61,714 nt of DNA from contig JAUCBJ010007364.1 in assembly GCA_032718475.1 (NCBI GenBank), forward strand, positions 1-61,714, given 5' to 3'. The notes below the pieces were generated by a model. It searched no databases, was not told the origin of the DNA, and was given only the letters and a program-made list of their open reading frames with translations. This stretch comes from Nemertoderma westbladi. Taxonomy: Eukaryota > Animalia > Xenacoelomorpha. Shown here piece after piece: positions 22,528 through 56,289 of the stretch (position 1 is the stretch's first letter; every line of letters begins with the position of its first letter). Made by a program: the position numbers and the translations under genes.

Positions 22528-23740
22528 ACGCAATAACTTCGTATAGCGGGTGTTACTAACCGATGGTGACGCAATAACCCGTAGCGGGTGTTACTAACCG
22601 ATAGTGACACAATAACCCGTAGCGGGAGTTACTAACCGATGGTGACACAATAACCCGTAGCGGGTGTTACTAACCGATGGTGACGCAATAACCCGTAGCG
22701 GGTGTTACTAACCGATGGTGACGCAATAAGCCGTAGCGGGTGTTACTAACCGATGGTGACGCAATAACCCGTAGCGGGTGTTACTAACCGATGGTGACGC
22801 AATAACCCGTAGCGGGTGTTACTAACTGATGGTGACGCAAAAACCCGTAGCGGGTGTTACTAACCGATGGTGACGCAATAACCCGTAGCGGGTGTTACTA
22901 ACTGATGGTGACGCAAAAACCCGTAGCGGGTGTTACTAACCGATGGTGACGCAATAACCCGTAGAGGGTGTTACTAACCGATGGTGACGCAATAACCCGT
23001 AGAGGGTGTTACTAACCGATGGTGACGCAATAACCCGTAGAGGGTGTTACTAACCGATGGTGACGCAATAACCCGTAGAGGGTGTTACTAACCGATGGTG
23101 ACGCAATAACCCGTAGAGGGTGTTACTAACCGATGGTGACGCAATAACCCGTAGAGGGTGTTACTAACCGATGGTGACGCAATAACCCGTAGCGGGTGTT
23201 ACTAACCGATGGTGACGCAATAACCCGTAGCGGGTGTTACTAACCGATGGTGACGCAATAACCCGTAGCGGGTGTTACTAACCGATGGTGACGCAATAAC
23301 CCGTAGCGGGTGTTACTAACCGATGGTGACGCAATAACCCGTAGAGGGTGTTACTAACCGATGGTGACGCAATAACCCGTAGAGGGTGTTACTAACCGAT
23401 GGTGACGCAATAACCCGTAGAGGGTGTTACTAACCGATGGTGACGCAATAACCCGTAGAGGGTGTTACTAACCGATGGTGACGCAATAACCCGTAGAGGG
23501 TGTTACTAACCGATGGTGACGCAATAACCCGTAGAGGGTGTTACTAACCGATGGTGACGCAATAACCCGTAGAGGGTGTTACTAACCGATGGTGACGCAA
23601 TAACCCGTAGCGGGTGTTACTAACCGATGGTGACGCAATAACCCGTAGAGGGTGTTACTAACCGATGGTGACGCAATAACCCGTAGAGGGTGTTACTAAC
23701 CGATGGTGACGCAATAACCCGTAGCGGGTGTTACTAACCG
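22528..23740. repeat. 38-bp minisatellite, about 31 units, starting at a TTLL9 splice donor
   Basis: Minus-strand unit cg|gttagtaacacccgctacgggttattgcgtcaccat; the first unit supplies the real donor at 23738. Confidence 0.95.
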
Positions 23741-23863
23741 AGAAAGGAATTAGTTGAATACAGAGGATTCGGGAGACAGTCGGTACCGACGTCGTCACAA
23801 TAAACCGGTCCATCGTTCCACATCAAATCGAAACCTCCAACCTGCTTCTCTCTACCTGTCAAC
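23739..23863 (-). CDS. TTLL9: TTLL9 exon LTGREKQVGGFDLMWNDGPV...NSFL(G)
   Basis: ttttatag acceptor; donor G|GTTAGT. Confidence 0.92.
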
Positions 23864-24353
23864 CTATAAAAGAGTTTGGCTAAATCAGTATAAATCGAGT
23901 ATAAAACAGATTGAACTGAGAGAATTGGTTGAGAATAGAACAACAGAAACTGATTGGGAGCAATCATTAAACTCAATCCGACAGAATTAGTTTAGAATGG
24001 CACAGAGAATTATGTTGTGATTATTAACTGACTGCATTACTAACATTGCACTTCGGTTTCAACGTTTATGATTCAGAATAATTAAAAATAATTATGGTGC
24101 CGTAATTTGACCGCAAGTAATAAAGTGATCTTCAGTACATGTGAAATAGGGTTCTGTTTATTGTTTTGGTTAGAAAACACCGACACTGGGGTCAATTTGC
24201 GCCATTAACTCTTATGATTATAGCATTACCCGCCCCAACATAATATTTGAGCTTATATTAGATTATACTAGATTATTAAGTTGAAATGTTGTCGTTTATT
24301 ATGTTTTATAAGCATCTTTAACATATATAACTTTACGTATCAAATCAACTCAC

Positions 24354-24467
24354 TTGTATTCCATGTCCAGAACAGTTAACATATCATCCAAGAGACCGAC
24401 TTTAAGATCATAATCTTCCTGACTGCTGGCTGTCAGGGATGGGGAAGCGTTCACCTCCAATAACCAA
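24354..24467 (-). CDS. TTLL9: TTLL9 exon [37 protein letters not shown](K)
   Basis: Catalytic ExN motif; acceptor ttttatttaaag; donor AA|GTGAGT. Confidence 0.93.
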
Positions 24468-24529
24468 CTTTAAATAAAAAAAATATGAGAAATATTGTAC
24501 ACAAATTCAATGTGAATTCATCGGTTATG

Positions 24530-27500
24530 GGGATTACACGCGCTAACCCCTTAAGGATTCATTCCCGGAACAGTACGTGACTGTTGGATGGTTTGGGATT
24601 ACACGCGCTAACCCCTTAAGGATTCACGGCCGGAACAGTACGTGACTGTTGGCTGGATGGTTTGGGATTACACGCGCTAACCCCTTAAGGATTCATTGCC
24701 GGAACAGTACGTGACTGCTGGATGGTTTGGGATTACACGCGCTAACCCCTTAAGGATTCATTCCCGGAACAGTACGTGACTGCTGGATGGTTTGGGATTA
24801 CACGCGCTAACCCCTTAAGGATTCATGGCCGGAACAGTACGTGACTGCTGGATGGTTTGGGATTACACGCGCTAACCCCTTAAGGAATCATGGCCGGAAC
24901 AGTACGTGACTGCTGGCTGGATGGTTTGGGATTACACGCGCTAACCCCTTAAGGATTCATTGCCGGAACAGTACGTGACTGCTGGATGGTTTGGGATTAC
25001 ACGCGCTAACCCCTTAAGGATTCATTCCCGGAACAGTACGTGACTGTTGGCTGGATGGTTTGGGATTACACGCGCTAACCCCTTAAGGATTCATTGCCGG
25101 AACATTACGTGACTGCTGGATGGTTTGGGATTACACGCGCTAACCCCTTAAGGATTCATGGCCGGAACAGTACGTGACTGCTGGATGGTTTGGGATTACA
25201 CGCGCTAACCCCTTAAGGATTCATTGCCGGAACATTACGTGACTGCTGGATGGTTTGGGATTACACGCGCTAACCCCTTAAGGATTCATGGCCGGAACAG
25301 TACGTGACTGCTGGATGGTTTGGGATTACACGCGCTAACCCCTTAAGGATTCATGGCCGGAACGGTACGTGACTGCTGGATGGTTTGGGATTACACGCGC
25401 TAACCCCTTAAGGAATCATGGCCGGAACAGTACGTGACTGCTGGCTGGATGGTTTGGGATTACACGCGCTAACCCCTTAAGGATTCATTGCCGGAACATT
25501 ACGTGACTGTTGGCTGGATGGTTTGGGATTACACGCGCTAACCCCTTAAGGATTCATTCCCGGAACAGTACGTGACTGCTGGCTGGTTTGGGATTACACG
25601 CGCTAACCCCGTAAGGATTCATTGCCGGAACAGTACGTGACTGCTGGATGGTTTGGGATTACACGCACTAACCCCTTAAGTATTCATTGCCGGAACAGTA
25701 CGTGACTGCTGGCTGGTTTGGGATTACACGCGCTAACCCCGTAAGGATTCATTGCCGGAACAGTACGTGACTGCTGGATGGTTTGGGATTACACGCGCTA
25801 ACCCCGTAAGGATTCATTGCCGGAACAGTACGTGACTGCTGGATGGTTTGGGATTACACGCGCTAACCCCTTAAGTATTCATTGCCGGAACGGTACGTGA
25901 CTGCTGGCTGGATGGTTTGGGATTACACGCGCTAACCCCTTAAGTATTCATTGCCGGAACAGTACGTGACTGCTGGCTGGTTTGGGATTACACGCGCTAA
26001 CCCCTTAAGTATTCATTGCCGGAACAGTACGTGACTGCTGGATGGTTTGGGATTACACGCGCTAACCCCTTAAGTATTCATTGCCGGAACAGTACGTGAC
26101 TGCTGGCTGGATGGTTTGGGATTACACGCGCTAACCCCTTAAGTATTCATTGCCGGAACAGTACGTGACTGCTGCCTGGTTTGGGATTACACGCGCTAAC
26201 CCCTTAAGTATTCATTGCCGGAACAGTACGTGACTGCTGGATGGTTTGGGATTACACGCGCTAACCCCTTAAGTATTCATTGCCGGAACAGTACGTGACT
26301 GCTGGATGGTTTGGGATTACACGCGCTAACCCCTTAAGTATTCATTGCCGGAACAGTACGTGACTGCTGGCTGGATGGTTTGGGATTACACGCGCTAACC
26401 CCTTAAGTATTCATTGCCGGAACAGTACGTGACTGCTGGCTGGTTTGGGATTACACGCGCTAACCCCTTAATGATTCATTGTCGGAACAGTACGTGACTG
26501 CTGGATGGTTTGGGATTACACGCGCTAACCCCTTAAGTATTCATTGCCGGAACAGTACGTGACTGCTGGATGGTTTGGGATTACACGCGCTAACCCCTTA
26601 AGGATTCATTGCCGGAACAGTACGTGACTGCTGGATGGTTTGGGATTACACGCGCTAACCCCTTAAGGATTCATTGCCGGAACAGTACGTGACTGCTGGC
26701 TGGCTGGTTTGGGATTACACGCGCTAACCCCATAAGGATTCATTGCCGGAACAGTACGTGACTGCTGGCTGGATGGTTTGGGATTACACGCGCTAACCCC
26801 TTAGGATTCATTGCCGGAACAGTACGTGACTGCTGGCTGGATGGTTTGGGATTACACGCGCTAACCCCGTAAGGATTCATTGCCGGAACAGTACGTGACT
26901 GCTGGATGGTTTGGGATTACACGCGCTAACCCCTTAAGGATTCATTGTCGGAACAGTACGTGACTGCTGGATGGTTTGGGATTACACGCGCTAACCCCTT
27001 AAGTATTCATTGCCGGAACAGTACGTGACTGCTGGATGGTTTGGGATTACACGCGCTAACCCCTTAATGATTCATTGCCGGAACGGTGCGTGACTGCTGG
27101 CTGGATGGTTTGGGATTACACGCGCTAACCCCGTAAGGATTCATTGCCGGAACAGAACGTGACTGCTGGATGGTTTGGGATTACACGCGCTAACCCCTTA
27201 AGGATTCATTGCCGGAACAGTACGTGACTGCTGGATGGTTTGGGATTACACGCGCTAACCCCTTAAGGATTCATTGCCGGAACAGTATGTGACTGCTGGC
27301 TGGCTGGTTTGGGATTACACGCGCTAACCCCATAAGGATTCATTGCCGGAACAGTACGTGACTGCTGGCTGGATGGTTTGGGATTACACGCGCTAACCCC
27401 TTAGGATTCATTGCCGGAACAGTACGTGACTGCTGGCTGGATGGTTTGGGATTCCACGCGCTAACCCCGTAAGGATTCATTGCCGGAACAGTACGTGACT

Positions 27501-29226
27501 GCTGGATGGTTTGGGATTACACGCGCTAACCCCTTAAGGATTCATTGTCGGAACAGTACGTGACTGCTGGATGGTTTGGGATTACACGCGCTAACCCCTT
27601 AAGTATTCATTGCCGGAACAGTACGTGACTGCTGGATGGTTTGGGATTACACGCGCTAACCCCTTAATGATTCATTGCCGGAACGGTGCGTGACTGCTGG
27701 CTGGATGGTTTGGGATTACATGCGCTAACCCCGTAAGGATTCATTGCCGGAACAGAACGTGACTGCTGGATGGTTTGGGATTACACGCGCTAACCCCTTA
27801 ATGATTCATTCCCGGAACAGTACGTGACTGCTGGCTGGCTGGTTTGGGATTACACGCGCTAACCCCTTAAGGATTCATTGCCGGAACAGTACGTGACTGC
27901 TGGCTGGATGGTTTGGGATTACACGCGCTAACCCCGTAAGGATTCATTGCCGGAACAGTACGTGACTGCTGGATGGTTTGGGATTACACGAGCTAACCCC
28001 TTAATGATTCATTGCCGGAACGGTACGTGACTGCTGGATGGTTTGGGATTACACGCGCTAACCCCTTAAGTATTCATTCCCGGAACAGTACGTGACTGCT
28101 GGATGGTTTGGGATTACACGCGCTAACCCCTTAATGATTCATTGCCGGAACAGTACGTGACTGCTGGATGGTTTGGGATTACACGCGCTAACCCCTTAAG
28201 GATTCATTGCCGGAACAGTACGTGACTGCTGGATGGTTTGGGATTACACGCGCTAACCCCTTAAGGATTCATTGCCGGAACAGTACGTGACTGCTGGATG
28301 GTTTGGGATTACACGCGCTAACCCCTTAAGTATTCATTGCCGGAACAGTACGTGACTGCTGGATGGTTTGGGATTACACGCGCTAACCCCTTAAGGATTC
28401 ATTGCCGGAACAGTACGTGACTGCTGGATGGTTTGGGATTACACGCGCTAACCCCTTAAGGATTAATGGCCGGAACAGTACGTGACTGCTGGATGGTTTG
28501 GGATTACACGCGCTAACCCCTTAAGTATTCATTGCCGGAACAGTACGTGACTGCTGGATGGTTTGGGATTTCACGCGCTAACCCCTTAAGTATTCATTGC
28601 CGGAACAGTACGTGACTGCTGGCTGGATGGTTTGGGATTACACGCGCTAACCCCTTAAGTATTCATTGCCGGAACAGTACGTGACTGCTGGCTGGTTTGG
28701 GATTACACGCGCTAACCCCTTAAGTATTCATTGCCGGAACAGTACGTGACTGCTGGATGGTTTGGGATTACACGCGCTAACCCCTTAAGGATTCATTGCC
28801 GGAACAGTACGTGACTGCTGGATGGTTTGGGATTACACGCGCTAACCCCTTAAGGATTCATTGCCGGAACAGTACGTGACTGCTGGCTGGCTGGTTTGGG
28901 ATTACACGCGCTAACCCCTTAAGTATTCATTGCCGGAACAGTACGTGACTGTTGGCTGGTTTGGGATTACACGCGCTAACCCCTTAAGGATTCATTGCCG
29001 GAACAGTACGTGACTGTTGGATGGTTTGGGATTACACGCGCTAACCCCTTAAGGATTCATGGCCGGAACAGTACGTGACTACTGGATGGTTTGGGATTAC
29101 ACGCGCTAACCCCTTAAGGATTCATGGCCGGAACAGTACGTGACTGCTGGCTGGATGGTTTGGGATTACACGCGCTAACCCCTTAAGTATTCATTGCCGG
29201 AACAGTACGTGACTGTTGGCTGGTTT
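24530..29226. repeat. 65/69-bp intronic minisatellite, about 70 units
   Basis: Unit gggattacacgcgctaaccccttaaggattcattgccggaacagtacgtgactgctggatggttt, with or without an extra ggct. Confidence 0.97.
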
Positions 29227-29564: not shown

Positions 29565-29761
29565 GGTTTCAAGTGGTTATCCAGTAATATATCGTAGCCG
29601 TACAACTCGAAGCAATGCTTATCGTTAATCATTATCTTCTGGACCGATTTCAGACTAATTATTATTATTTCATCGATAATACGAAACAATTCCTTAACAA
29701 CATCGTAACCATGACGGGCAGTTAAATACTGTCGCAGTTGCTGCAACGACCATTTACATCC
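29565..29761 (-). CDS. TTLL9: TTLL9 exon [13 protein letters not shown]...[18 protein letters not shown](P)
   Basis: ttgatttag acceptor; donor CC|GTAAGT. Confidence 0.94.
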
Positions 29762-30083
29762 CTAAATCAAATCAAAATATAAAAACACGAGTAAATAAAT
29801 AATATATTATTTATTAATTTATTAATTTATAACAAATAACAGCGTTAAAACAGAATATTGGCATTGCAATCCTACAAGATTCACATTGTTAACTCGTGAA
29901 GCAAAGATAAACAAGTTAAGAAATACGCCATTACTGTGTTGTTGTTACGTGCCTTTGGTATCGCATCACAGGATTCACTATCACTATGTATCCTTTACTG
30001 CCACAACAGTCTGCGCTGCAATGCGTGTGTAGTTTATATTTACAGTAGTTATATTGTAACATATTATATAGTAGAGATTACAG

Positions 30084-30917: not shown

Positions 30918-31194
30918 AGAGATTACAGGATTATAGTATGTAGTATTTGTTCTGGTGTAAAACGTGTTACTCGACGGGAATTGGTGTCTCAAAAATCATA
31001 ATACATTTCAGATGACAACAACTCCTGTTGCGTGTAACCCGTGAATGAGAAAGAATAAAAATAATGTACATAACTCTGCATAAAGGGAGGGAATGGGTGG
31101 GAAAAAAAATCCTAAAGTTTGGATATACAGTATCTAAAAGCAAAATCTGATCCTTCAGCTAAAATCAGAGTGATAAACATATGTGTGTGTTGTG

Positions 31195-32182: not shown

Positions 32183-32241
32183 CCTATCAGGATCATAGTC
32201 AGGAGCTGTCTTTTGAATGGCGACATTAGTTAGATGGATAT
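32183..32241 (-). CDS. TTLL9: TTLL9 exon (Y)IHLTNVAIQKTAPDYDPDR
   Basis: ctgcag acceptor; donor AGG|GTTAGC; HLTN motif. Confidence 0.93.
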
Positions 32242-33169: not shown

Positions 33170-33380
33170 AAGTATCGTCTATGCTTTCGTGTGTATATCG
33201 ATAGAATGAGAAGCGGGCGAATCCCGAGCGATACAACCAAACTTTTAGCGGCGTGTAGGAAGCGATGAGAACGTAAATCCTTAGATCGAACTTTTTGCCA
33301 CCGATTAGGTAAGGACTGTCGATGTAGCGGGATACAATGTAAGTCTCCGGACCCTCTTTGTTCTCATCAGTTCTCTCCCC
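33170..33380 (-). CDS. TTLL9: TTLL9 exon [38 protein letters not shown]...SIDDT(Y)
   Basis: ttgttttag acceptor; KFDLR motif; ends at the U12 donor. Confidence 0.94.
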
Positions 33381-33524
33381 CTAAAACAAACCAATTTCAA
33401 TGGGTTAGAAATTTACTACATTACAATCAGCGCGGTTCTTGATAGTTAAGGGGCAACAAACATATTAAAATCGTCTGCAAAGATAAGATAGTAGATTTTG
33501 ATTCTCGGCTACTTAACTAAAACT

Positions 33525-34495: not shown

Positions 34496-34636
34496 AGAAA
34501 TTTTCTTCCAGTCTGTAATATCTTTCAATCGTTTAAACAGGAATATTCCCTTTCCTTGGGACTTAGCTATTGGTTTCATTATCCATGTGACCCCGGGATG
34601 CTTCTTAAACTCCTCCACAAATATGTGATACTCAGA
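34496..34636 (-). CDS. TTLL9: TTLL9 exon [47 protein letters not shown]
   Basis: ttttacag acceptor; donor TCT|GTAAGA; phase 0 at both ends. Confidence 0.94.
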
Positions 34637-34670
34637 CTGTAAAATAAAATGTTTTGATACAGATGGTTGC

Positions 34671-37600: not shown

Positions 37601-37776
37601 ACGTAGTGGATAGAAATAAACTTACTGGTAGTTCGTACGTAGCGGATAGAAATCAACTTACTGGTAGTTCGTACGTAGCGGGTAGAAATCAACTTACTGG
37701 TAGTTCGTACGTAGCTGGGTAGAAATCAACTTACTGGTAGTTCATAAGTAGCGGATAGAAATCAACTTACTGGTAG
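34671..37776. repeat. 36/37-bp exon-end plus splice-donor minisatellite, distal block, about 85 units
   Basis: Minus-strand unit gttgatttctaccc(a)gctacgtacgaactacca|gtaa. Confidence 0.97.
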
Positions 37777-41900: not shown

Positions 41901-41989
41901 ATGATAAAATTACATAGTAATACATACGTAAATATAAAAATAATAAAATAATATAAAATAATAGAGTCACACGCCCACTCCATATGTTG

Positions 41990-44900
41990 TTACGTTATGG
42001 AGTCCCTAGATGTTTGAAGGATTAGGGAGGTGGTCGTGGGATGAGAATCTTGCCTTCCACAGTTTCCGGAGAGTCCTCCATTCCCTTCCGGTAAACACAA
42101 ACGACCGACTGGGTGATTGAGTCGCTGCATCCTGAATACAATTACAGGTTTCCTCTTAGTCCTGGAATAGTGACGATAGAAACATCGCTCAAAGTATATG
42201 ACGGCGTCACAAAGCCGATTCCAGGAGCTATAGTGGTCCGTCGCTCTCTGCAGGAGAGGTGAGAGTCCCTGCGAGACGTCTGATGTTCCAGAGCTCCAAT
42301 CGCTCTCTCTGATCTTCATGAAGGATCCACTCGCGGTGGGGAGGTTCAGATCCATGGCGTCGTCCCTGGCAATATGTAATACCGACAGATCTATCCCGGG
42401 TTCAAATAACTCCGATCCACCCGTCCGGGTTTCAGGTTCGACTTTCTCCGCTCCCTTGGCTGGTCTAATCTCAGTCGGAGTAAGATGGGGAGGCCATTCA
42501 TTCTCCTTACTCAGGAAGTCGGGTTCACCTAACCGGTCTATAGTATCTGTCAGTTCTTGAGGAGTTGCTCCTCTGGAAGCGATGTCCGTTGGATTAAACT
42601 TCTTGGGGCAATATCTCCATTGATCTACATTGGAGCTAAGATTGTCATTATCTGAGGAGTGTGGTGTTCCCTCAGTTGGGTCGTCTCCCTCACTAGTATC
42701 ATCTTCCCATTCACTCACCTGGCAGACGCGATCTTGAAGCAGTCTTTCCCTGAGCGTTCTACGGGAAGGTCCAGTAAGGTACCAACCTACTCTAGTTCTT
42801 ACCGCATAGGTCTGTAGTGGCTGCGGTTGAGCAGGCCGTTTCTCTAATGTCTCCAGCGCCTCATGCGCGTTTTGGCCGATGAGTATTTGCACTCCAGGAT
42901 AATCAGTCTGGAATCGAGGTATGTTAAGATGTTGGATGCTCTCATCCTCATCCCAATTATAAAGGTCTGCTTGAGTAGTAGCGAAGTTCTTTATAGCCAC
43001 CATTTTCACTGACCTGATGCTATGTTCTCCTAGTTCGTCCTGGGGGGTGGACAACTCACCTATATAATAGTCGGCAGCCACAGTAGAATTCCAAACCTGC
43101 ATGATCCCTGACATGTTTAGCTTGGTTCGGAACTTGGGTTGTCCAGCAAAGATGACTTCGGCTAGTTCTTTATCGATGAATGTTCCTGTGCTGCCGGAGT
43201 CCAAGAGGGCGTTCACTATATAGCTCTTCTGAGGTCCGTGGACCCGTAACTGGACTACAGGAAATTCTCGGATTCCTATATTGGAAGTTGGCGCTTTCCA
43301 AGATGGTTGTTGATCTGAAGTAGTTAGGGTGAGGTCGCTGTTTGTGTCTTTCTCATACATGAGTGCTCGATACACTGCGGTGGTGTTTATTAGGTAACAG
43401 GATTCGTTTTGGTCGGAGAACTCGTCCGTATAGAATCCTTCCATCTCAGATTGATCAGTGTCGTTCACATCACTGAATTGGACATGTAGTTCGGACTCAC
43501 TTACCTGACTCGGGCTGTTTCGTTCGAATTCCGTGTGCAACAAGATATGATGTTTTGCGCCACACTTTGCACACCTTGCGTCGGAGTTACAGGTTCGCCG
43601 TTGGTGTCCTCGTCTGAGGCAATTATAACACAACCGCTTATCCCACATGACTTCACGTCTATCCTTTAGTGATTTCCTCAGGAATTTATCACACGCATTT
43701 AAACGGTGGGGCCCGTCGCACAGCACACATTTCGGCTTGATGTTACTTACTTTAACCTGTGCTATGTGGTGCACACTTGTTCTTTCCTCGGGCTTTCTCA
43801 CCTGAATTCTTTTAGGAGACGTAGGAAGGGTTTTTTGTACCGGTTCCCTTCTGTCATTGGGTCGAGACTCGGATTTACTTACCTGATCTTTAGGCATTTT
43901 ATTGACATAATAAGATCTGTCAGTGTCTTTCCCGCTGTCCTCTCCTTGAGAAGTTTGGCTTTCACCGTCGTCTGTATAACATACTGGTGTTACCCTTCTC
44001 CTAGAAACGGGTTTTTCACTTACCTTGTTTTCCGGTGTCTTCTCTCTGGACTGCCTTAGGAGCTGTAATTTCACTTCTCTATCTAAGAATGACATGAGAT
44101 CAGTCATGGTAGGGTCTCGTTGTTGTTGTTCCATCATATATAACACCTTCTTGTCCCAGCGTGTACCTACTCCACCCTTGGGCAAAGTAGATGCTAAGGC
44201 TCCTACAACCATAGAATTCTGGTATTCATGAGACTTACCTAACCAATCTAGTTGTCTACAGATCTCCTGAATCTCATCGGAAAACTCTATAATCCCGCTG
44301 CTAAGAAACTTTCGGGGCGCCATTAATTTCGCATATAAATACTTAGCGATATTATTCCTATTACCATACCTGATGTTTAGTGTATCCCAAACTTGTCTTA
44401 ATCCGTCTGGATGTCCAATAAACTTTAACGCCATTAACTTGGGAGATCCTTCCAAGCACTCGATGAGGTATCTCAGTTTTTCTCCATTAGATAGTACAGA
44501 GTTCTGTATGTTATCTTTGTAATATTCATTAAAAGGTAACCATTTCATCTCATCTCCATTGAACTTGACGATCTCTCCCACCTTTACCGCTTGCCAGGCT
44601 TCGGTTCTAGCCATTTGACGCGTAAAACTTTCTTGGGCCATCGTGTTATTTAATATAGAATTATCGATATATAAATTTCTCGGATTATGATCAGTTCTAT
44701 AGGGAATATCATTATCAACAGGTCTATAATTACCCTTAATAGGGTTCACTATAGGAGTTTCTACTTCGCTAGCAGTATATATGCGTGTAGGCTCCACACC
44801 TTGCGCATGAGATACTTCAGACCTAACAGGTTGACACATTGTTACAGAGGGTGGTGGTATACCTCTTTGAGTATTTACTAATTTATCGCGTTCTAGCGCG

Positions 44901-46201
44901 ATACTTTGCTGCACTTCTTGCAACTCTAGCCTACTTTCCCTCACTGTTCCCTTTAAATGTTGGACAGTCCCTTCCAACTCTCGGACCTGTTGGGAGGAGC
45001 GTATCCGATTCTCCTTCATCTCTCCGAGGAGAATATCCATCCCCCGCCGTCTCTCGTCTACCCAATCAACCGCCGAAACGGGATCCGCCAACGTCGTAGC
45101 GGGCAGACGAGGGACAACGGGCGACAAATTTGGAATATTTCGCTCGGGGTCCAGGACCTGAACTGTCTCCTGGGCAGTTCTACGGGGCACAGGTAGCTTA
45201 GTGCTATGCAGAGGGAATTTATAGGTAGCTTCAGGGAGCACAGGTGTATCTATTATCGAAGGGGTGATTTCAAGAACAGGCCTACTTATTTCAGGCTCAT
45301 CTACTATAGTAGGGAGTCTTTCTATTGTAATTATTTGGTCTGTGGGTTCTGTACTCTCTAAGTTGGTGTTATTTAGTTGCCTTCTAACAGCTGGAGGCAA
45401 ATCAGGCAATTTCTGACGGTGGAATGTTCTTTTACGTCTGCTTAGGCGGGATCGATTTCCTCCGCCTTCAGTGTCGGTGGTATCGCCTTCCTCAGATGAT
45501 GTATAACCTTGTCGTTTGGGAGTAGATCGATTCATCATCTGCATATTACTAGCTGTTAACTGTTTATTAAAGCTATCTTGCCTCTCTTGAAGATTTTCCA
45601 ACTCTAGTTGGGTTGTCTCTTCAGATGCCCTCCGTTCTGCTTCTGCCACTGCTATCTTTCTTTCCGCTTCTGCCGCTGCCGCTTTCCTTTCCGCTTCTAC
45701 GGCTGCAGCTGCCGCTTTTGCCTCTGCCGCTGCCGCTTTCCTTTCCGCTTCTACGGCTGCAGCTGCCGCTTTTGCCTCTGCCGCTGCCGCTTTCCTTTCC
45801 GCTTCTACGGCTGCAGCTGCCGCTTTTGCCTCTGCCGCTGCCTCTGCTGCCTTTCTTTCCGCTTCTGCCGCTGCCACTGCCGCTGCTGCTGTCTTTCTAT
45901 CTTCTATACGTTTTTTCCTTACTTGTTCTTCCTTTTCTCTAGCGATGCGGAGTTGTTCATCGAATTTAGCTTGGTTCGCCGCTAACCTATCCACATCAAT
46001 CGCATCTAACACAAGTTTGGCTCCTTCGCTATTAGGGCTAAGTCCCTCCAGCCTTCTCCTCAACTCGTCATCTCCTAAAAAACGCTGATAGTCTGACAGA
46101 TAGATGTCAATGGCATCCCTCTTATGCGGTTTCTCTGCTGTCACTTCGCTCTCGGTTGTATCTAGTAGACTGTCTGACAGGTTCTGCTTTGCGTCAGACA
46201 T
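41990..46201 (-). CDS. BEL/Pao Gag-protease polyprotein (1403 aa) with only a vestige of Pol
   Basis: DUF1759-like FNGDEMKWLPF..EKLRYL; three Cys/His knuckles (CVLCDGPH..C, CYNCLRRGH..C, CAKCGAKHHILLH); ALLDSGS protease; then QWRYCPKKFNPTDIASRG and YSSWNRL. No RT or integrase motifs seen. Confidence 0.9.
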   Translation of the reverse strand: MSDAKQNLSDSLLDTTESEVTAEKPHKRDAIDIYLSDYQRFLGDDELRRRLEGLSPNSEGAKLVLDAIDVDRLAANQAKFDEQLRIAREKEEQVRKKRIEDRKTAAAAVAAAEAERKAAEAAAEAKAAAAAVEAERKAAAAEAKAAAAAVEAERKAAAAEAKAAAAAVEAERKAAAAEAERKIAVAEAERRASEETTQLELENLQERQDSFNKQLTASNMQMMNRSTPKRQGYTSSEEGDTTDTEGGGNRSRLSRRKRTFHRQKLPDLPPAVRRQLNNTNLESTEPTDQIITIERLPTIVDEPEISRPVLEITPSIIDTPVLPEATYKFPLHSTKLPVPRRTAQETVQVLDPERNIPNLSPVVPRLPATTLADPVSAVDWVDERRRGMDILLGEMKENRIRSSQQVRELEGTVQHLKGTVRESRLELQEVQQSIALERDKLVNTQRGIPPPSVTMCQPVRSEVSHAQGVEPTRIYTASEVETPIVNPIKGNYRPVDNDIPYRTDHNPRNLYIDNSILNNTMAQESFTRQMARTEAWQAVKVGEIVKFNGDEMKWLPFNEYYKDNIQNSVLSNGEKLRYLIECLEGSPKLMALKFIGHPDGLRQVWDTLNIRYGNRNNIAKYLYAKLMAPRKFLSSGIIEFSDEIQEICRQLDWLGKSHEYQNSMVVGALASTLPKGGVGTRWDKKVLYMMEQQQRDPTMTDLMSFLDREVKLQLLRQSREKTPENKVSEKPVSRRRVTPVCYTDDGESQTSQGEDSGKDTDRSYYVNKMPKDQVSKSESRPNDRREPVQKTLPTSPKRIQVRKPEERTSVHHIAQVKVSNIKPKCVLCDGPHRLNACDKFLRKSLKDRREVMWDKRLCYNCLRRGHQRRTCNSDARCAKCGAKHHILLHTEFERNSPSQVSESELHVQFSDVNDTDQSEMEGFYTDEFSDQNESCYLINTTAVYRALMYEKDTNSDLTLTTSDQQPSWKAPTSNIGIREFPVVQLRVHGPQKSYIVNALLDSGSTGTFIDKELAEVIFAGQPKFRTKLNMSGIMQVWNSTVAADYYIGELSTPQDELGEHSIRSVKMVAIKNFATTQADLYNWDEDESIQHLNIPRFQTDYPGVQILIGQNAHEALETLEKRPAQPQPLQTYAVRTRVGWYLTGPSRRTLRERLLQDRVCQVSEWEDDTSEGDDPTEGTPHSSDNDNLSSNVDQWRYCPKKFNPTDIASRGATPQELTDTIDRLGEPDFLSKENEWPPHLTPTEIRPAKGAEKVEPETRTGGSELFEPGIDLSVLHIARDDAMDLNLPTASGSFMKIRESDWSSGTSDVSQGLSPLLQRATDHYSSWNRLCDAVIYFERCFYRHYSRTKRKPVIVFRMQRLNHPVGRLCLPEGNGGLSGNCGRQDSHPTTTSLILQTSRDSIT

Positions 46202-48588
46202 GCTTATGTGTACAGTTGAATGTCTACTGCTGTATTACAGTCTGAGCAAGTCTAGTAACTCAGTATTAACTGCTAGCCTAGTAATTAATTACCGGTACTG
46301 CTACTCAGTGTAGCGTGATATATATAATATATTAGAATACCGGTATGCTTATAGTATATATAACTATTATTACAGACTAGGTTTATCACAGAATACCGGT
46401 ATAATTTTAGCACAAATATATATAAATATATAATAGGCCTATCGGAATACCGGTATACAGCTTACAGTTTGTAGTATATATAATTCTGGACTAGAATTAA
46501 TTACAAGTACCAGTATAATTTCAGCCTAAATTTATAGAAATAAAGATAATAGGCCTATCGTAAATACCGGTATGCAGTTTACACTTACAGTGTATATATA
46601 TAAGTATAATTACAAACTAGAATTAATTACAGAATACCGGTATGATTTCAACCTAAAATTTATAGAAATAAATATAATAAGCCTATTGTAAATACCGGTA
46701 TATCAATTATTTTAAATAACTGAATTTCTGAATTTCAAGGGTTACTTGGTTACCTTACTTACTTTATTACCGTTATTTGAGCAGTAATCCAACTGATATT
46801 GAGACCTAATGGTTGTATGGCAGGCCTACTATTTATAAATCGTTTGAGTTGATTTATAATATATATATACCCGTTTTAATGGGTTTTGTCAATGTTTGAA
46901 ATAAATGTTATTATTTCTGGGGAGTAATCACTACACAAAGCGGTGCGCTTTCAGTGAAGTGTTACTTATAGGACACTAAAACAAATAATTCTAATTTACC
47001 TAAGTTACTTAATACTACAAATTACGTACAATTCGGGTGAGATTACAATCTCTAAATAAACACAAAAATTTACAAAAAACACAAAATACGAATTTTTAGG
47101 GTAATTTTACAAGAAGTCTACAAACCAGCCTAACAAAGGGTTAGAAACTGGTTATTACAACGGACAGGGTACTACGGTATTTGAAATAATAAGTAGTAGT
47201 AAATACACTGCGTTGTCCAGATAGGAAAATACCACCGCCTGACGACCTATAGCCGTATCGCTATAGGTTCTACGTTATGTATCACGGAGTGTTCCTACCT
47301 AGAAGTTAATAGAGCTAATCGAACGTGCCTATCAACCACTTTACAACACAAATATAATGCCTACACTAATTACTTCGGAAAGTACTGTACACTAAACCCT
47401 AAATTAGGTACGAGTACTTGTACAACAGATAATCAGTAGTTAAATATACTTGAACAGCTAAAAGAACCACGGCATCTGCTGGAGTGACCGATGCACAAAA
47501 TCACCAGTCTTTACCTACGCCAAGCAGCCCGTGTAGTACCGGGGTTAATTTAACTATAGCGGTATGTATAACAAACACAATTACTGTAGGAACAAACTTG
47601 GGGAATGAATGTTGCGGATAATCGCATAAACTCTGAATAATAAATATTACGCTACGCGTACAAACTACTCAAACAAAATGCAGACCAAATACCGACAGAC
47701 TACCATCAAGCCTAAACAAACTAAGGTATATGCAGACTCCGAAATGATTAGGCAGTATGCGTTCTAACCCAGTAGTACGACTTATTCTTTAATTGGGGGT
47801 TTACCTTACAGCATTGGCTGCCCCTACTTCCTAACCGTACTTAATCGGACAGAGGCTCTACACACACTACAATCCGTTCAGACCTAATAACAGCCAGACA
47901 ACTATCCAGTCTACAAATTATCTAAATAAATATTATACGCTACCTGTACGGACTTACACAAACAAAGTACAGACTAAACGATGGCAGACTACTCTCAAGC
48001 CTAAATAAACTACAGGACATGCAGACTCCGAAATGATTAGGCAGTATGCGTTCTAACCCAGTAGTACGACTTATTCTTTAATTGGGGGTTTACCTTACAG
48101 CGTTCGCTGCCCCTACTTCCTAACCGTACTCAATCGGACAGGTGATCTACACACACTGCAATCCGTTCAGACTTAACAGCAATCAGACAACAGCTCAGCC
48201 TACAAATTGTCTGTACAATCTGATCAGGCTTACACGCCTTCTGTTCAATACTGGCCTACAAACAAATAAAACTTGCTGACTTGACAGAAATAAGTAAAAA
48301 TCTCAATAAAAAACCAGGGCTGCAGTCCCTGATTAATTATTAAGACCTACCGGTATACAACTATCAAAATCGAATAATACTAATGTACTTATACGGAAGT
48401 ACCGGTTAGGACAGTTAGGCCTACGGACCTACAGAAGTACCGGTTCTGGCAGTTGGACCTATGGGCCTACGGCAGTACCGGTTCTGGCAGTTGGGCCTAC
48501 TGACCTACAGATGGACCGTTCAGGTTTACCGGTTGACCGGTACTTTCAACTTTATTGCTTACTGCAATAAAGAAGCTATATCCGTTAT

Positions 48589-49792
48589 TGTTCGCGCTTT
48601 CAGACCTTTGGCAGTTTAACCCGCCAAATTAGGATGTCTTCTAGATAATAAATCACCTTTAGTCTATGACAAGTATTTAATTCACTACACTAGTCGAAAC
48701 CAATCTGTGCGCGATCATTCACCCGCTGGATATACCCGGGAGATTGGGTTCGACGGCTTAATTTTATTGCTATGTAAGCCTAATGTATTATTCGACTGAC
48801 AGTATTATATAATCTCTGACAATATTATTCACCTTCGGGAAATATTAACAGTTCCTTTAGGACGTGGCGCTCTATCTATACAAACAGAGTTATGACTTAA
48901 ACTACTCACAACGATATGGCTTAGTTACAATTCACATATATGGCGCATTCTTTAGGAAATGCTTCATTATCAGTCTCACTCATACACAATGCTGCACAAT
49001 ACTGCACACTGATCTGCCGATCTTCACTGATTTTAGTCACATATAAAAGGAACACGGACCGAATCATGTAGGGTCTATCAAATAACATTAGATTCACTTC
49101 AAACCACTCAACATAGGTCGCAATCATTTATCTGTAACCTTTCTCTCTTACCTTCGGTATATCAAGAATATTGGGTTTTCGGGGTTATTTGTCGTTATTC
49201 CAAATATAATAATTCATCAACCATATTATGAAGAACTGACAGTAAATAGCAGTATAACAATATAAAAGTATGCACAGTGTTACACAGTATGCAGTGTATG
49301 CAGTACTGCAGTATGCAGTATGCAGTGATCAGACATCAGATAACGGATATATGTCCTTATAATTAAGCCTACTAGTGTAAGACTAAAAACTGAAAACACA
49401 GAGGTGCCAAAAGCCGGTTCTTAGGCTCTGGGCAAAACATAACACTGAACTACTGAGTTTCTGCATACACCTCCAACACAGAGACAACAAACGCTCTGAT
49501 TGGTCAACCTGAACAACGAGAGAACAAAGAAACAAAGAAACGTCGACGTGGCAATATCAGCTGCTAGCCGTCGTCATGGTAGCGACACTGTTTTCAAGAG
49601 TATCGAGCTTTTACGTCACGGAATTACGGATTATGTCCTCTAAAGTACAAATACAGAAGAAATAGCTTTTATGTCCGCTAAAACACCAGTACAGCAAGGA
49701 CACGGCCTTTTTATGCCTGGTAAACCAACTACAGAGTATTTTACGGGAAAAATAAGGAAAAATAACCGGACAATTCAGCAAAAGCTTTTACA
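48589..49792 (-). repeat. 5' LTR (1204 bp)
   Basis: Direct repeat of 37777-38973; lies upstream of the Gag ORF. Confidence 0.95.
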
Positions 49793-52700
49793 GGTAGTTC
49801 GTACGTAGCTGGGTAGAAATCAACTTACTGGTAGTTCATAAGTAGCGGATAGAAATCAACTTACTGGTAGTTCGTACGTAGCTGGGTAGAAATCAACTTA
49901 CTGGTAGTTCATAAGTAGCGGATAGAAATCAACTTACTGGTAGTTCGTACGTAGCTGGGTAGAAATCAACTTACTGGTAATTCATAAGTAGCGGATAGAA
50001 ATCAACTTACTGGTAGTTCGTACGTAGCTGGGTAGAAATCAACTTACTGGTAGTTCATAAGTAGCGGATAGAAATCAACTTACTGGTAGTTCGTACGTAG
50101 CGGGTAGAAATCAACTTACTGGTAGTTCGTACGTAGCTGGGTAGAAATCAACTTACTGGTAGTTCATAAGTAGCGGATAGAAATCAACTTACTGGTAGTT
50201 CGTACGTAGCTGGGTAGAAATCAACTTACTGGTAGTTCGTACGTAGCGGGTAGAAATCAACTTACTTGTAGTTCGTACGTAGCTGGTAGAAATCAACTTA
50301 CTGGTAGTTCGTACGTAGCTGGGTAGAAATCAACTTACTGGTAGTTCATAAGTAGCGGATAGAAATCAACTTACTGGTAGTTCGTACGTAGCTGGGTAGA
50401 AATCAACTTACTGGTAGTTCATAAGTAGCGGATAGAAATCAACTTACTGGTAGTTCGTACGTAGCGGGTAGAAATCAACTTACTGGTAGTTCGTACGTAG
50501 CTGGGTAGAAATCAACTTACTGGTAGTTCATAAGTAGCGGATAGAAATCAACTTACTGGTAGTTCGTACGTAGCTGGGTAGAAATCAACTTACTGGTAGT
50601 TCATAAGTAGCGGATAGAAATCAACTTACTGGTAGTTCGTACGTAGCGGATAGAAATCAACTTACTGGTAGTTCGTACGTAGCGGGTAGAAATCAACTTA
50701 CTGGTAGTTCGTACGTAGCGGGTAGAAATCAACTTACTGCTAGTTCGTACGTAGCGGATAGAAATCAAATTACTGGTAGTTCGTACGTAGCGGGTAGAAA
50801 TCAACTTACTGGTAGTTCGTACGTAGCGGGTAGAAATCAACTTACTGGTAGTTCGTACGTAGCTGGTAGAAATCAACTTACTGGTAGTTCGTACGTAGCG
50901 GATAGAAATCAAATTACTGGTAGTTCGTACGTAGCGGGTAGAAATCAACTTACTGGTAGTTCGTACGTAGCGGGTAGAAATCAACTTACTGGTAGTTCGT
51001 ACGTAGCCGGGTAGAAATCAACTTACTGGTAGTTCGTACGTAGCGGGTAGAAATCAACTTACTGGTAGTTCGTACGTAGCGGGTAGAAATCAACTTACTG
51101 GTAGTTCGTACGTAGCGGGTAGAAATCAACTTACTGGTAGTTCGTACGTAGCCGGGTAGAAATCAAATTACTGGTAGTTCGTACGTAGCTGGTAGAAATC
51201 AACTTACTGGTAGTTCGTAAGTAGCTGGTAGAAATCAACTTACTGGTAGTTCGTACGTAGCGGGTAGAAATCAACTTACCTACTGGTAGTTCATACGTAG
51301 CGGGTAGAAATCAACTTACTGGTAGTTCGTAAGTAGCTGGGTAGAAATCAACTTACTGGTAGTTCGTACGTAGCGGGTAGAAATCAACTTACTGGTAGTT
51401 CGTACGTAGCTGGGTAGAAATCAACTTACTGGTAGTTCGTACGTAGCGGGTAGAAATCAACTTACTGGTAGTTCGTACGTAGCGGGTAGAAATCAACTTA
51501 CTGGTAGTTCGTACGTAGCCGGGTAGAAATCAAATTACTGGTAGTTCGTACGTAGCTGGTAGAAATCAACTTACTGGTAGTTCGTAAGTAGCTGGTAGAA
51601 ATCAACTTACTGGTAGTTCGTACGTAGCTGGGTAGAAATCAACTTACTGGTAGTTCATACGTAGCGGGTAGAAATCAACTTACTGGTAGTTCGTACGTAG
51701 CTGGGTAGAAATCAACTTACTGGTAGTTCGTACGTAGCTGGGTAGAAATCAGCTTACTGGTAGTTCGTACGTAGCTGGTAGAAATCAACTTACTGGTAGT
51801 TCGTACGTAGCGGGTAGAAATCAACTTACTGGTAGTTCGTACGTAGCGGATAGAAATCAACTTACTGGTAGTTCGTACGTAGCGGGTAGAAATCAACTTA
51901 CTGGTAGTTCGTACGTAGCGGATAGAAATCAACTTACTGGTAGTTCGTACGTAGCGGATAGAAATCAACTTACTGGTAGTTCGTACGTAGCGGGTAGAAA
52001 TCAACTTACTGGTAGTTCGTACGTAGCGGACAGAAATCAACTTACTGGTAGTTCGTACGTAGCGGATAGAAATCAACTTACTGGTAGTTCGTACGTAGCG
52101 GATAGAAAACAACTTACTGGTAGTTCGTACGTAGCGGATAGAAATCAACTTACTGGTAGTTCGTACGTAGCGGATAGAAATCAACTTACTGGTAGTTCGT
52201 ACGTAGCGGATAGAAATCAACTTACAGGTAGTTCGTACGTAGTGGATAGAAATAAACTTACTGGTAGTTCGTACGTAGCGGATAGAAATCAACTTACTGG
52301 TAGTTCGTACGTAGCGGGTAGAAATCAACTTACTGGTAGTTCGTACGTAGCTGGGTAGAAATCAACTTACTGGTAGTTCATAAGTAGCGGATAGAAATCA
52401 ACTTACTGGTAGTTCGTACGTAGCGGATAGAAATCAACTTACTGGTAGTTCGTACGTAGCTGGGTAGAAATCAACTTACTGGTAGTTCGTACGTAGCTGG
52501 TAGAAATCAACTTACTGGTAGTTCGTACGTAGCTGGTAGAAATCAACTTACTGGTAGTTCGTACGTAGCTGGTAGAAATCAACTTACAGGTAGTTCGTAC
52601 GTAGCGGGTAGAAATCAACTTACTGGTAGTTCGTACGTAGCGGATAGAAATCAACTTACTGGTAGTTCGTACGTAGCGGGTAGAAATCAACTTACTGGTA

Positions 52701-54607
52701 GTTCGTACGTAGCGGATAGAAATCAACTTACTGGTAGTTCGTACGTAGCGGATAGAAATCAACTTACTGGTAGTTCGTACGTAGCGGGTAGAAATCAACT
52801 TACTGGTAGTTCGTACGTAGCGGATAGAAATCAACTTACTGGTAGTTCGTACGTAGCGGATAGAAATCAACTTACTGGTAGTTCGTACGTAGCGGATAGA
52901 AATCAACTTACTGGTAGTTCGTACGTAGCGGATAGAAATCAACTTACTGGTAGTTCGTACGTAGCGGATAGAAATCAAATTACTGGTAGTTCGTACGTAG
53001 CTGGTAGAAATCAACTTACTGGTAGTTTGTACGTAGCTGGTAGAAATAAACTTACTGGTAGTTCGTACGTAGCGGATAGAAATCAACTTACTGGTAGTTC
53101 ATACGTAGCTGGTAGAAATCAACTTACTGGTAGTTCGTACGTAGCGGATAGAAATCAACTTACTGGTAGTTCATACGTAGCTGGTAGAAATCAACTTACT
53201 GGTAGTTCGTAAGTAGCTGGGTAGAAATCAACTTACTGGTAGTTCGTACGTAGCGGGTAGAAATCAACTTACTGGTAGTTCGTACGTAGCTGGGTAGAAA
53301 TCAACTTACTGGTAGTTCGTACGTAGCTGGTAGAAATCAACTTACTGGTAGTTCGTACGTAGCTGGTAGAAATCAACTAACTGGTAGTTCGTACGTAGCT
53401 GATAGAAATCAACTTACTGTAGTTCGTACGTAGCGGGTAGAAATCAACTTACTGGTAGTTCGTACGTAGCGGGTAGAAATCAACTTACTGGTAGTTCGTA
53501 CGTAGCGGATAGAAATCAACTTACTGGTAGTTCGTACGTAGCTGGTAGAAATCAACTAACTGGTAGTTCGTACGTAGCGGGTAGAAATCAACTTACTGGT
53601 AGTTCGTACGTAGCTGGTAGAAATCAACTTACTGGTAGTTTGTACGTAGCTGGTAGAAATCAACTTACTGGTAGTTCGTACGTAGCGGGTAGAAATCAAC
53701 TTACTGGTAGTTCGTACGTAGCGGGTAGAAATCAACTTACTGGTAGTTCATACGTAGCGGGTAGAAATCAACTTACTGGTAGTTCGTAAGTAGCTGGGTA
53801 GAAATCAACTTACTGGTAGTTCGTACGTAGCGGGTAGAAATCAACTTACTGGTAGTTCGTACGTAGCTGGGTAGAAATCAACTTACTGGTAGTTCGTACG
53901 TAGCGGGTAGAAATCAACTTACTGGTAGTTCGTACGTAGCGGATAGAAATCAACTTACTGGTAGTTCGTACGTAGCGGGTAGAAATCAACTAACTGGTAG
54001 TTCGTACGTAGCGGGTAGAAATCAACTTACTGGTAGTTCGTACGTAGCGGAAAGAAATCAACTTACTGGTAGTTCGTACGTAGCTGGTAGAAATCAACTT
54101 ACTGGTAGTTCGTACGTAGCGGGTAGAAATCAACTTACTGGTAGTTCGTAAGTAGCTGGGTAGAAATCAACTAACTGGTAGTTCGTACGTAGCTGGGTAG
54201 AAATCAACTTACTGGTAGTTCGTACGTAGCGGGTAGAAATCAACTAACTGGTAGTTCGTACGTAGCGGGTAGAAATCAACTTACTGGTAGTTCGTACGTA
54301 GCTGGGTAGAAATCAACTTACTGGTAGTTCGTACGTAGCGGGTAGAAATCAACTTACTGGTAGTTCGTACGTAGCGGAAAGAAATCAACTTACTGGTAGT
54401 TCGTACGTAGCTGGTAGAAATCAACTAACTGGTAGTTCGTACGTAGCTGGTAGAAATCAACTTACTGGTAGTTCGTACGTAGCGGGTAGAAATCAACTTA
54501 CTGGTAGTTCGTACGTAGCTGGGTAGAAATCAACTTACTGGTAGTTCGTACGTAGCGGGTAGAAATCAACTTACTGGTAGTTCGTACGTAGCTGGGTAGA
54601 AATCAAC
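49793..54607. repeat. 36/37-bp exon-end plus splice-donor minisatellite, proximal block, about 130 units
   Basis: Same unit as 34671-37776; the first unit (54607-54571) is the coding end [11 protein letters not shown] plus GTAA. Confidence 0.97.
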
Positions 54608-54806
54608 TTTTGCTGCTTCCAAACGACCGTTTTCTCTTTCTACCATCTTCCGATATCGTTTTAGATTTTTAATCATAAGATTTTTGCGGGTCAGCTCGTA
54701 ATGATTACGGAAATGACAGATCCTCATGTGTTCCTCTAAGTAGGCGTGGTCGAAAATCTCCTTCATAAAGCCGACGTCACACCAGTAGAGATCCCATTCG
54801 GCTTCA
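54575..54806 (-). CDS. TTLL9: TTLL9 exon (D)[11 protein letters not shown]...[12 protein letters not shown]...[11 protein letters not shown]
   Basis: tttttattctcag acceptor; donor CCA|GTAAGT. Confidence 0.94.
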
Positions 54807-55352
54807 CTGAGAATAAAAATACACGGGACATAATATGTTTCATGCACGTAAACATGGCATAAACAAACAGCCCCCCTAATGTATGTAGCACGCTAAGTCA
54901 ATGACATTTTGTTGATTAAATATTGTTGTTAAATATTGATTAAATATTTTAAAACATTGCACGGCAAGGTGGCATTTGGTGTCCACCGTAAAATTATATT
55001 TGTAATTCTATATCTATATACTCTAACCTAAGGGGGGGGGGGGGGGGGGGTGCTTACCAAAAATCATTAAATGGCAGAGGAATAGTAATTTGAAAATTAG
55101 GGGTGGAGTAAAGGTGTTTAAATAATTATTATCTTCATATTATTAATATATTCAAGTACGTACAAGCAATGAATCTATATTATGTATAAGTTCTATACTG
55201 ATTATTAATATGAATTATATATGTACAAATTATTATTAAATTTAATATATTAAGTTAAAGATTATCGCGTTTGCTGTTACTTCCATCCTTTTATTGTGTT
55301 TCCCTCAATCATTCACTTAATTATTATTATTGATACAGATATACCATATAGG

Positions 55353-56289
55353 GTACTTTACTTACTCTTTAACGTCCTGTCACCCCCTGGCCCGTAGGAC
55401 GTCTAGGATGGTACTTTACTTACTCTTTAACGACCAGCCACCCCCTGGCCCGTAGGACGTCTAGGATGGTACTTTACTTACTCTTTAACGTCCTGCCACC
55501 CCCTGGGCCGTAGGACGTCTAGGATGGTGTTCTGGAGGTACTTTACTTACTCTTTAACGTCCTGCCACCCCCTGGCCCGTAGGACGTCTAGGATGGTGTT
55601 CTACTTACTCTTTAACGTCCTGCCACCCCCTGGGCCGTAGGACGTCTAGGATGGTGTTCTGGAGGTACTTTACTTACTCTTTAACGTCCTGCCACCCCCT
55701 GGCCCGTAGGACGTCTAGGATGGTGTTCTACTTACTCTTTAACGTCCTGCCACCCCCTGGGCCGTAGGACGTCTAGGATGGTGTTCTGGAGGTACTTTAC
55801 TTACTCTTTAACGTCCTGCCACCCCCTGGCCCGTAGGACGTCTAGGATGGTGTTCTGGAGGTACTTTACTTACTCTTTAACGTCCTGCCATCCCCTGGCC
55901 CGTGGCACGTCTAGGATGGTGTTCTACTTACTCTTTAACGTCCTGCCACTCCCTGGCCCGTAGGACGTCTAGGATGGTACTTTACTTACTCTTTAACGAC
56001 CAGCCACCCCCTGGCCCGTAGGACGTCTAGGATGGTACTTTACTTACTCCTTAACGACCAGCCACCCCCTGGCCCGTAGGACGTCTAGGATGGTGTTCTA
56101 CTTACTCTTTAACGTCCTGCCATCCCCCGGGCCGTAGGACGTCTAGGATGGTGTTCTACTTACTCTTTAACATCCTGCCACCCCTTGGCCCGTAGGACGT
56201 CTAGGATGGTGTTCTGGAGGTACTTTACTTACTCTTTAACGTCCTGCCATCCCCTGGCCCGTAGGACGTCTAGGATGGTGTTCTGGAGG
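55353..56289. repeat. 58/69-bp exon-end plus splice-donor minisatellite, 15 donor-bearing units
   Basis: Minus-strand unit (ctcc)agaacaccatcctagacgtcctacgggccagggggtggcaggacgttaaaga|gtaagt(aaagtac) = LQNTILDVLRARGWQDVK plus donor. Confidence 0.95.

What the first reader, a model, noticed from the sequence alone, without database searches (positions are those of the whole stretch)
22528..56289. Splice-donor-seeded minisatellites: three unrelated arrays in one gene each start at, and reiterate, a 5' splice site
Seen: three of eight TTLL9 introns begin with a tandem array whose first unit contains the functional donor (56232, 54574, 23738). The units are unrelated in sequence and length (58/69, 36/37, 38 bp), so these are three separate origins. 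All extend from the donor into the intron, and none covers an acceptor or lengthens the coding sequence. Inference: either a mutational process that amplifies exon/intron junctions (e.g. breaks or R-loops near donors repaired by microhomology slippage), or a selective filter in which junction-spanning duplications survive because the first donor still works. I do not know of this as a named repeat class, but cannot confirm it is undescribed.
Basis: partly seen in the sequence, partly recalled or inferred. Interest (0 to 1): 0.88.

Follow-up and report, generated by a model that had tools for sequence, protein, structure and literature searches.

The report
Splice-site "mirage" repeats in TTLL9 introns
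In an invertebrate's TTLL9 gene, three exon-end splice signals have each been copied about 15 to 220 times into the following intron, a repeat type already named "mirage" in lancelets and known from a human clotting-factor gene, and the one RNA-like sample uses the first, genuine signal, so this is likely a dense but ordinary example.

Summary
Observation confirmed. Three of 8 TTLL9 introns begin with unrelated arrays that repeat the donor (56232, 54574, 23738). The arrays are in DNA runs of two samples, so they are not an assembly artefact, and contigs of an RNA-like run use the first donors. The class is not new: such arrays are named 'mirages' in amphioxus (PMC3087553), human F7 intron 7 has the same layout with first-donor use shown experimentally (PMC1557585), and this scan noted the pattern before in 14 findings from at least 11 other genomes. 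Corrections: a fourth intronic array (65 bp) touches no splice site; array 3 holds only 3 exonic bases; array 2 is split by a young LTR element; and an 81-bp unit ending at the exon-2 acceptor loops in tandem in three DNA runs, so the donor-only claim is doubtful (its location is not bridged). Local enrichment exceeds a uniform model (P about 0.0008, one gene chosen after the fact), which survival of the first donor alone does not explain. Verdict: new member of a known kind; interest 0.2.

The parts
56233..56357 (-). TTLL9 first located coding exon; its last 57 nt seed array 1
   Evidence: tblastn; frame; X3 contig joins it to exon 2
55352..56289 (-). Array 1: 69/58-bp exon-end + donor units, 15 GTAAGT donors, real donor at 56232
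   Evidence: tail bridged to unique intron by an X2 contig
54805..54883 (-). Single copy of an 81-bp unit that ends 2 nt into exon 2, over the acceptor; a head-to-tail loop of it exists in runs X1, X2, X4
   Evidence: tables 5, 5c, 7; no second copy in the window; location of the tandem form not bridged
54575..54806 (-). TTLL9 exon 2; its last 35 nt seed array 2
   Evidence: X3 contig joins it to exon 3
49793..54609 (-). Array 2, donor-proximal part (36/37 bp, about 133 copies), real donor at 54574
   Evidence: units in X1, X2, X4
37777..49792 (-). LTR retrotransposon inside array 2: LTRs 49792-48589 and 38973-37777, 99.25% identical, 5-bp target duplication CTACC, ORF 46198-41993 with DUF1759
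   Evidence: BEL/Pao-like label is recalled from DUF1759 and the 5-bp duplication
34673..37776 (-). Array 2, distal part (about 86 copies), last unit decayed; about 35 nt remain before the acceptor at 34637
34496..34636 (-). TTLL9 exon 3
   Evidence: loose end of X3 contig
33170..33380 (-). TTLL9 exon 4
32183..32241 (-). TTLL9 exon 5
29565..29761 (-). TTLL9 exon 6
24530..29226 (.). Array 4 (65 bp, about 71 copies) inside intron 6, not at an established splice site
   Evidence: present in X1, X2, X4
24354..24467 (-). TTLL9 exon 7
   Evidence: X3 joint to exon 8
23739..23863 (-). TTLL9 exon 8
   Evidence: X3 contig
22544..23741 (-). Array 3: 38-bp units, 32 GTTAGT donors, real donor at 23738, only 3 exonic bases per unit, last unit decayed
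   Evidence: bridged from exon 8 in X1 and X4, and by a shorter overlap in X2
22256..22328 (-). TTLL9 last coding exon to about the stop codon

Best explanation
These are three mirage-type minisatellites: each repeats a TTLL9 splice donor head-to-tail into its intron, likely began as a short local duplication across the exon-intron border and grew by ordinary minisatellite turnover, and is likely harmless because the spliced RNA seen uses the first donor. Shown: the arrays, their units, decayed distal edge units, presence in two samples, first-donor use in one RNA-like run at contig level, and an in-frame stop within 2-7 nt of each donor. Inferred: seeding by short microhomology (CC in array 1, TCG in array 3, AAGTTGATT between the exon and a GTAAGTTGATT-type donor in array 2), growth by unequal exchange or gene conversion, first-donor choice by the upstream-first rule shown for human F7, and loss of any mis-spliced RNA through the early stop. 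Why donors are hit more often than intron interiors is open; I think it most likely (about 0.55 of this explanation) that duplications arise preferentially where a conserved exon meets a polymorphic intron, the rest being longer survival of arrays tied to an exon that cannot be deleted.
For: Unit anatomy and decayed last units in arrays 2 and 3 match amphioxus mirages, where cluster edges escape homogenisation (PMC3087553 passages). X3 contigs: exon 1 unique sequence runs through one unit copy straight to exon 2 (joint to 54806, GT-AG), exon 2 ends at 54575 and continues with the first 30 nt of exon 3, exon 7 joins exon 8 and the contig leaves the window at 23738. Arrays in X1 (sample S1) and X2/X4 (sample S2). 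Exact blocks up to 387 bp shared by the two halves of array 2 across the LTR element show block-scale turnover. F7: only the most upstream of 5-9 identical donors is used (PMC1557585 abstract and Discussion). Exon parts inside the units are about as conserved as the rest (mean identity 0.62 and 0.65 against 0.72-0.73 in 86 homologues), so the protein looks undisturbed.
Against: Array 3 spans the border by only 3 nt, so it is a marginal mirage. The RNA evidence is one run whose type is only guessed, held as contigs that drop rare forms; for array 3 the partner exon was not displayed. No shared hairpin or G-skew signal among the three units (dimer z -0.5/-1.3, +0.2, -1.0), so no sequence-level cause was found. 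The original start of intron 2 is gone (62 nt remain when collapsed), so its microhomology is inferred. Early stops occur in 7 of 8 introns and are not special to the arrays. The enrichment figure comes from a single gene chosen after the fact.
Confidence: 0.8

Rival explanations
1. No bias at all: the genome is rich in minisatellites, seeds fall at random, and three happened to land on donors of this gene and were tolerated.
For: At least seven long unrelated arrays in 62 kb; array 4 and the 60-bp and 32-bp arrays are not at established splice sites; the window was singled out because of the pattern.
Against: P = 0.0008 for 3 of 4 at donors under uniform seeding; an acceptor-ending unit of the same gene also occurs in tandem form; the same layout recurs in amphioxus genes.
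Confidence: 0.12
2. The copied donors are a regulatory device: occasional use of a downstream copy brings in a stop codon and tunes TTLL9 output, with array length acting as a dial.
For: 203 of 211 array-2 segments keep GTAAGT and all 15 and 32 listed copies in arrays 1 and 3 keep theirs (the split was made on that motif, so this is partly by construction); any downstream use gives a stop within 2-7 nt.
Against: Units are 85-98% alike overall, so intact donors are expected from homogenisation; X3 contigs join across from the first donors; F7 pseudo-sites stay silent; amphioxus RT-PCR found regular splicing.
Confidence: 0.05
3. Intron 2 is a new intron created from exon-end repeats (the intron-gain route proposed for mirages).
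For: 99.8% of intron 2 is array or LTR element; 62 nt remain when collapsed, most of it a decayed unit; no isoform gap edge at residue 119 among 120 homologues.
Against: It ends in a unique T-rich acceptor tract that is not part of the unit; the unit has no acceptor-like tract; isoform gaps only show skipped exons, so the blank is weak; introns 1, 3, 4, 5, 6, 7 match gap edges in other animals.
Confidence: 0.06
4. Assembly artefact from long-read slippage or collapsed haplotypes.
For: Exact copy numbers were not checked; no listed contig spans a whole array.
Against: Array units and exon-to-array bridges in short-read contigs of two samples from two studies; patterned unit variants and a clean target duplication around the LTR element.
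Confidence: 0.01

Closest known systems
'Mirage' minisatellites of amphioxus (Adh3, Canestro et al. 2002, not read, known through PMC3087553 and PMC3902484; globins BflGb6 and BflGb9, PMC3087553 passages; PGBD5, PMC3902484 one passage)
   Same: Tandem units span an exon-intron boundary and copy the splice signal; unit lengths overlap (10-72 bp for Adh3 as cited); several per gene region; regular splicing; edge units escape homogenisation.
   Different: Host is likely not Branchiostoma (PPT1 only 64% identical to B. floridae; TTLL9 unplaced in the tree). Copy number is far higher than in the globin cases (about 220 against 3-6), one intron is almost wholly array, and an LTR element has inserted into it.
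Human F7 intron 7 37-bp VNTR (Borensztajn et al. 2006, PMC1557585; abstract and Discussion read)
   Same: First unit holds the exon-intron junction; identical downstream donors stay unused; array 2 even has the same unit length.
   Different: 5-9 donors against 15, 32 and about 200 here; one array per gene against three; mechanism tested there, not here.
Variable internal tandem repeats at exon-intron boundaries in human segmental duplications (De Grassi and Ciccarelli 2009, PMC2812944; 12 passages read)
   Same: Repeats at boundaries that vary in number.
   Different: There they often change splicing or make new introns in young paralogues; here a conserved gene with a normal spliced product.

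Membership tests
mirage minisatellite | Head-to-tail array with minisatellite-size unit | tested here: met
   Units 58/69, 36/37, 38 bp; 15, about 219 and 31.5 copies
mirage minisatellite | Unit spans an exon-intron boundary and copies the splice signal | tested here: met
   Arrays 1 and 2 clearly (57 and 35 exonic nt); array 3 only by 3 exonic nt; donors confirmed by X3 contigs
mirage minisatellite | Authentic site used, regular mRNA | tested here: met
   X3 contigs join from the first donors; one run, contigs only, rare forms not visible
mirage minisatellite | Homogenised interior, diverged edge units | tested here: met
   Distal units of arrays 2 and 3 are decayed while interiors are 94-98% matched; not seen for array 1
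mirage minisatellite | Length polymorphism between alleles | tested here: inconclusive
   Unit variants differ between runs and window but contigs cannot give array length
mirage minisatellite | Somatic instability (reported for Adh3) | not testable with these tools
   Needs small-pool PCR or long reads of one animal
F7-type donor VNTR | Downstream donors are functional when the first is mutated | not testable with these tools
   Needs minigenes
Intron gain by tandem duplication | Intron absent at this position in relatives and acceptor supplied by the repeat | tested here: inconclusive
   Intron 1 position matches gap edges in 4 vertebrate proteins; intron 8 weakly (one gap from residue 403); intron 2 no gap edge; the metagenome loci had no intron-rich genes to compare; the acceptors in the window are unique sequence

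The most novel reading that the evidence does not exclude
In this species splice junctions of both kinds are mutational hot spots for tandem amplification, fast enough that an array over the exon-2 acceptor is present in some individuals or haplotypes and absent in others; the species would let one watch mirages being born from allele comparisons and test a homology-edge mechanism genome-wide.
Probability: 0.3. Interest if true: 0.5.

Novelty: new member of a known kind. Interest (0 to 1): 0.2.

Why it matters
As a class it is known, so the value is as material. Three independent donor arrays in one conserved gene, one with about 200 donors, extend the upstream-first rule of donor choice well beyond the 5-9 copies of F7 and outside chordate models. 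The open question is why such arrays gather at splice sites; the paper read calls their origin unclear, and my six searches (top listings only) showed no genome-wide census. A segregating acceptor array, if confirmed, would make that question testable within one species. Practical point: such arrays can mislead gene prediction and short-read assembly.

Tried and rejected
Whole-genome enrichment test: no genome held. No RNA holder was listed by record; X3 was recognised as RNA-like only from GT-AG joints and exon-only cover. X3 has no cover over array bodies and X2/X4 have none over exon 2; lack of cover is not used as evidence (a filter or assembler clean-up can cause it; the idea that a short exon between two deep loops is removed by the assembler is recalled, not tested). 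Naming the animal: the TTLL9 tree of 33 rows (32 chosen by me from 120 hits, for taxon spread) put the window in no well-supported group. Intron-position check with metagenome loci: 80 loci, 14 with more than one aligned piece, none intron-rich, uninformative for intron 2. R-loop and hairpin ideas: no common G-skew or folding signal in the three units (mononucleotide shuffles). Array 4 as a hidden cassette-exon mirage: its start is only a weak acceptor (top 13% of 259 background AG), its unit has a donor-like site (top 3% of 319 GT) on a crude 8-site matrix; not accepted. The 47-bp array as a mirage of a neighbouring gene: donor-like site top 4%, acceptor top 16%; the putative upstream exon found nothing in the Atlas (best 0.76), and two nearby frames had no Pfam match above cut-off; unresolved. 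The 60-bp array's donor-like site scored as background (top 22%). PMC10078293 (10 passages) had nothing on junction-spanning units. Earlier notes on this genome: none. Supplements were not opened; those of PMC3087553 hold the mirage alignments.
Full report
Setting. The window is animal DNA of about 40% GC with at least seven long, unrelated tandem arrays. No genome is held. A minus-strand gene of nine located coding exons gives an open 424-aa frame; its best homologues are named TTLL9. All eight introns are GT-AG. The animal could not be placed: the tree left it in no supported group, and the neighbouring single-exon PPT1 is at most 70% identical to any listed hit and 64% to Branchiostoma floridae, so it is likely not that lancelet.

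The observation. Array 1 has 15 donors from 56232 to 55365; the 69-bp unit is the last 57 nt of the exon plus 12 intron bases, and two 58-bp variants lack 11 nt each. Array 2 starts at 54574; its unit is the last 34-35 exon bases plus GT. It is one array: the same unit variants continue on both sides of a 12-kb LTR element with 99.25% identical LTRs and a 5-bp target duplication, and exact blocks up to 387 bp are shared by the two halves. With array and element removed the intron is 62 nt, most of it a decayed last unit. Array 3 has 32 donors from 23738; the unit is the first 35 intron bases plus TCG, which equals the exon end, and the last unit is decayed. The finding omits a fourth array (65 bp) in intron 6 that is not at a donor. 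Under uniform seeding, 3 or more of 4 arrays at donors has P = 0.0008, at any splice site 0.006; the gene was chosen after the fact.

Independent data. Four runs from three studies were listed, all guessed as DNA; I laid all four on two 1-kb stretches. X1, X2 and X4 (two samples) hold the units of arrays 2, 3 and 4 and of array 1's tail; X1 and X4 contigs bridge exon 8 into array 3, and an X2 contig joins unique intron to array 1's tail. The arrays are real; lengths were not measured. X3 behaves as RNA. One 232-nt contig runs from unique exon-1 sequence through a single copy of the exon end to 54806; the tool placed the joint on the last copy only because the first lay outside the stretch, and the loose end is the unique exon sequence. 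A second contig leaves exon 2 at 54575 and continues with the first 30 nt of exon 3. A third joins exons 7 and 8 and stops matching at 23738, then runs on for 660 nt that were not displayed. So the dominant RNA uses the first donors; contigs cannot exclude minor use of others.

A result against the donor-only reading. One search shows a 111-nt X1 contig that goes back 79 bases from 54883 to 54805 with two letters between, and the same junction as loose ends in X2 and X4, with high summed depth there. This is a head-to-tail 81-bp unit that ends 2 nt inside exon 2, over its acceptor. The window has one copy. The listed pieces differ from the window at 3-4 of about 59 letters and none bridges into exon 2, so it is either an acceptor-type array on other alleles or a related satellite elsewhere; I put these near even.

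How it likely works. A short duplication across the border, likely helped by a few matching bases (inferred from junctions), gives two donors in a row; unequal exchange or conversion then expands and homogenises the array and leaves the far edge to decay. The first donor keeps working, as shown for F7, where only the most upstream of 5-9 identical sites is used (PMC1557585 abstract and Discussion). Use of a later copy would meet a stop at intron base 2, 7 or 3, though 7 of 8 introns have an early stop. The repeated exon parts are not clearly more diverged than the rest of the protein. Tolerance does not explain enrichment, because mid-intron seeds are equally harmless; a bias in origin or in survival is needed if the local excess is general. 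G-skew and hairpin tests gave no common signal, so the R-loop idea has no support here.

What is known. [quoted passage not shown] The original Adh3 paper was not read. PMC2812944 (passages) covers human boundary repeats. This scan has 14 similar findings in at least 11 other genomes, of which 8 were shown; I had reached the mirage reading before opening them, and I did not check their claims. Six literature searches (top listings only) showed no genome-wide census of such arrays.

Verdict. Real, confirmed, and a new member of a known kind. What is unusual is degree: three in one gene, about 200 donors in one intron, an intron almost wholly replaced, and a possible segregating acceptor array. 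Interest 0.2; novel case probability 0.3, interest 0.5 if true.

Noticed in passing
window 54805-54883: 81-bp unit ending over the exon-2 acceptor: one copy in the window, head-to-tail form in runs X1, X2 and X4; possible acceptor-type array on other alleles.
   Followed up: partly
window 37777-49792 and 90-758: Two insertions of one LTR family, both in or abutting minisatellites: the full element inside array 2, and a 94.8% identical LTR end directly against the 47-bp array. Arrays fill much of the window, so two of two is weak.
   Followed up: partly
window 759-1394 and 2683-2841: 47-bp array whose minus-strand unit holds a donor-like GTGAGA and whose first unit follows an AG; a 53-codon hydrophobic frame ending at a GT lies 1.3 kb upstream. 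Could be a fourth donor array in a neighbouring gene; no homologue found.
   Followed up: partly
window 24530-29226: Array 4 starts right after an AG and each unit holds GGG|GTTAGC, the same hexamer as donor 5; a 47-nt cassette exon would shift the frame. Scores were weak.
   Followed up: partly
window 11381-17957: 60-bp array of about 110 copies just downstream of PPT1, with long open frames on both strands (1688 codons on plus); no evidence that it is translated.
   Followed up: no
window 18248-19153: Intronless palmitoyl-protein thioesterase 1 gene, 301 aa.
   Followed up: partly
window 24156-24188: 33-bp stretch in intron 7 matches a very high-copy dispersed repeat in all four runs, some copies in tandem.
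   Followed up: no
window 20980-21398: 32-bp array whose unit holds a 16-bp palindrome (dimer folding z -2.8), with related inverted copies near 20730-20790.
   Followed up: no
window 59204-61420: 739-codon plus-strand frame with a weak DUF4218 match below cut-off; looks like a DNA transposase (my reading, untested).
   Followed up: partly
window 30049-30693, 31116-31673, 33750-33930: Fragments resembling non-LTR retrotransposons in introns 5 and 3 (frames; weak DUF6451 match for one).
   Followed up: no
window 56233-56279: The X3 exon-1 end differs from array 1's last copy at one letter while the window's exon differs at two, which suggests the X3 allele carries the array's majority base; possible exchange between array and exon (inferred).
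   Followed up: no
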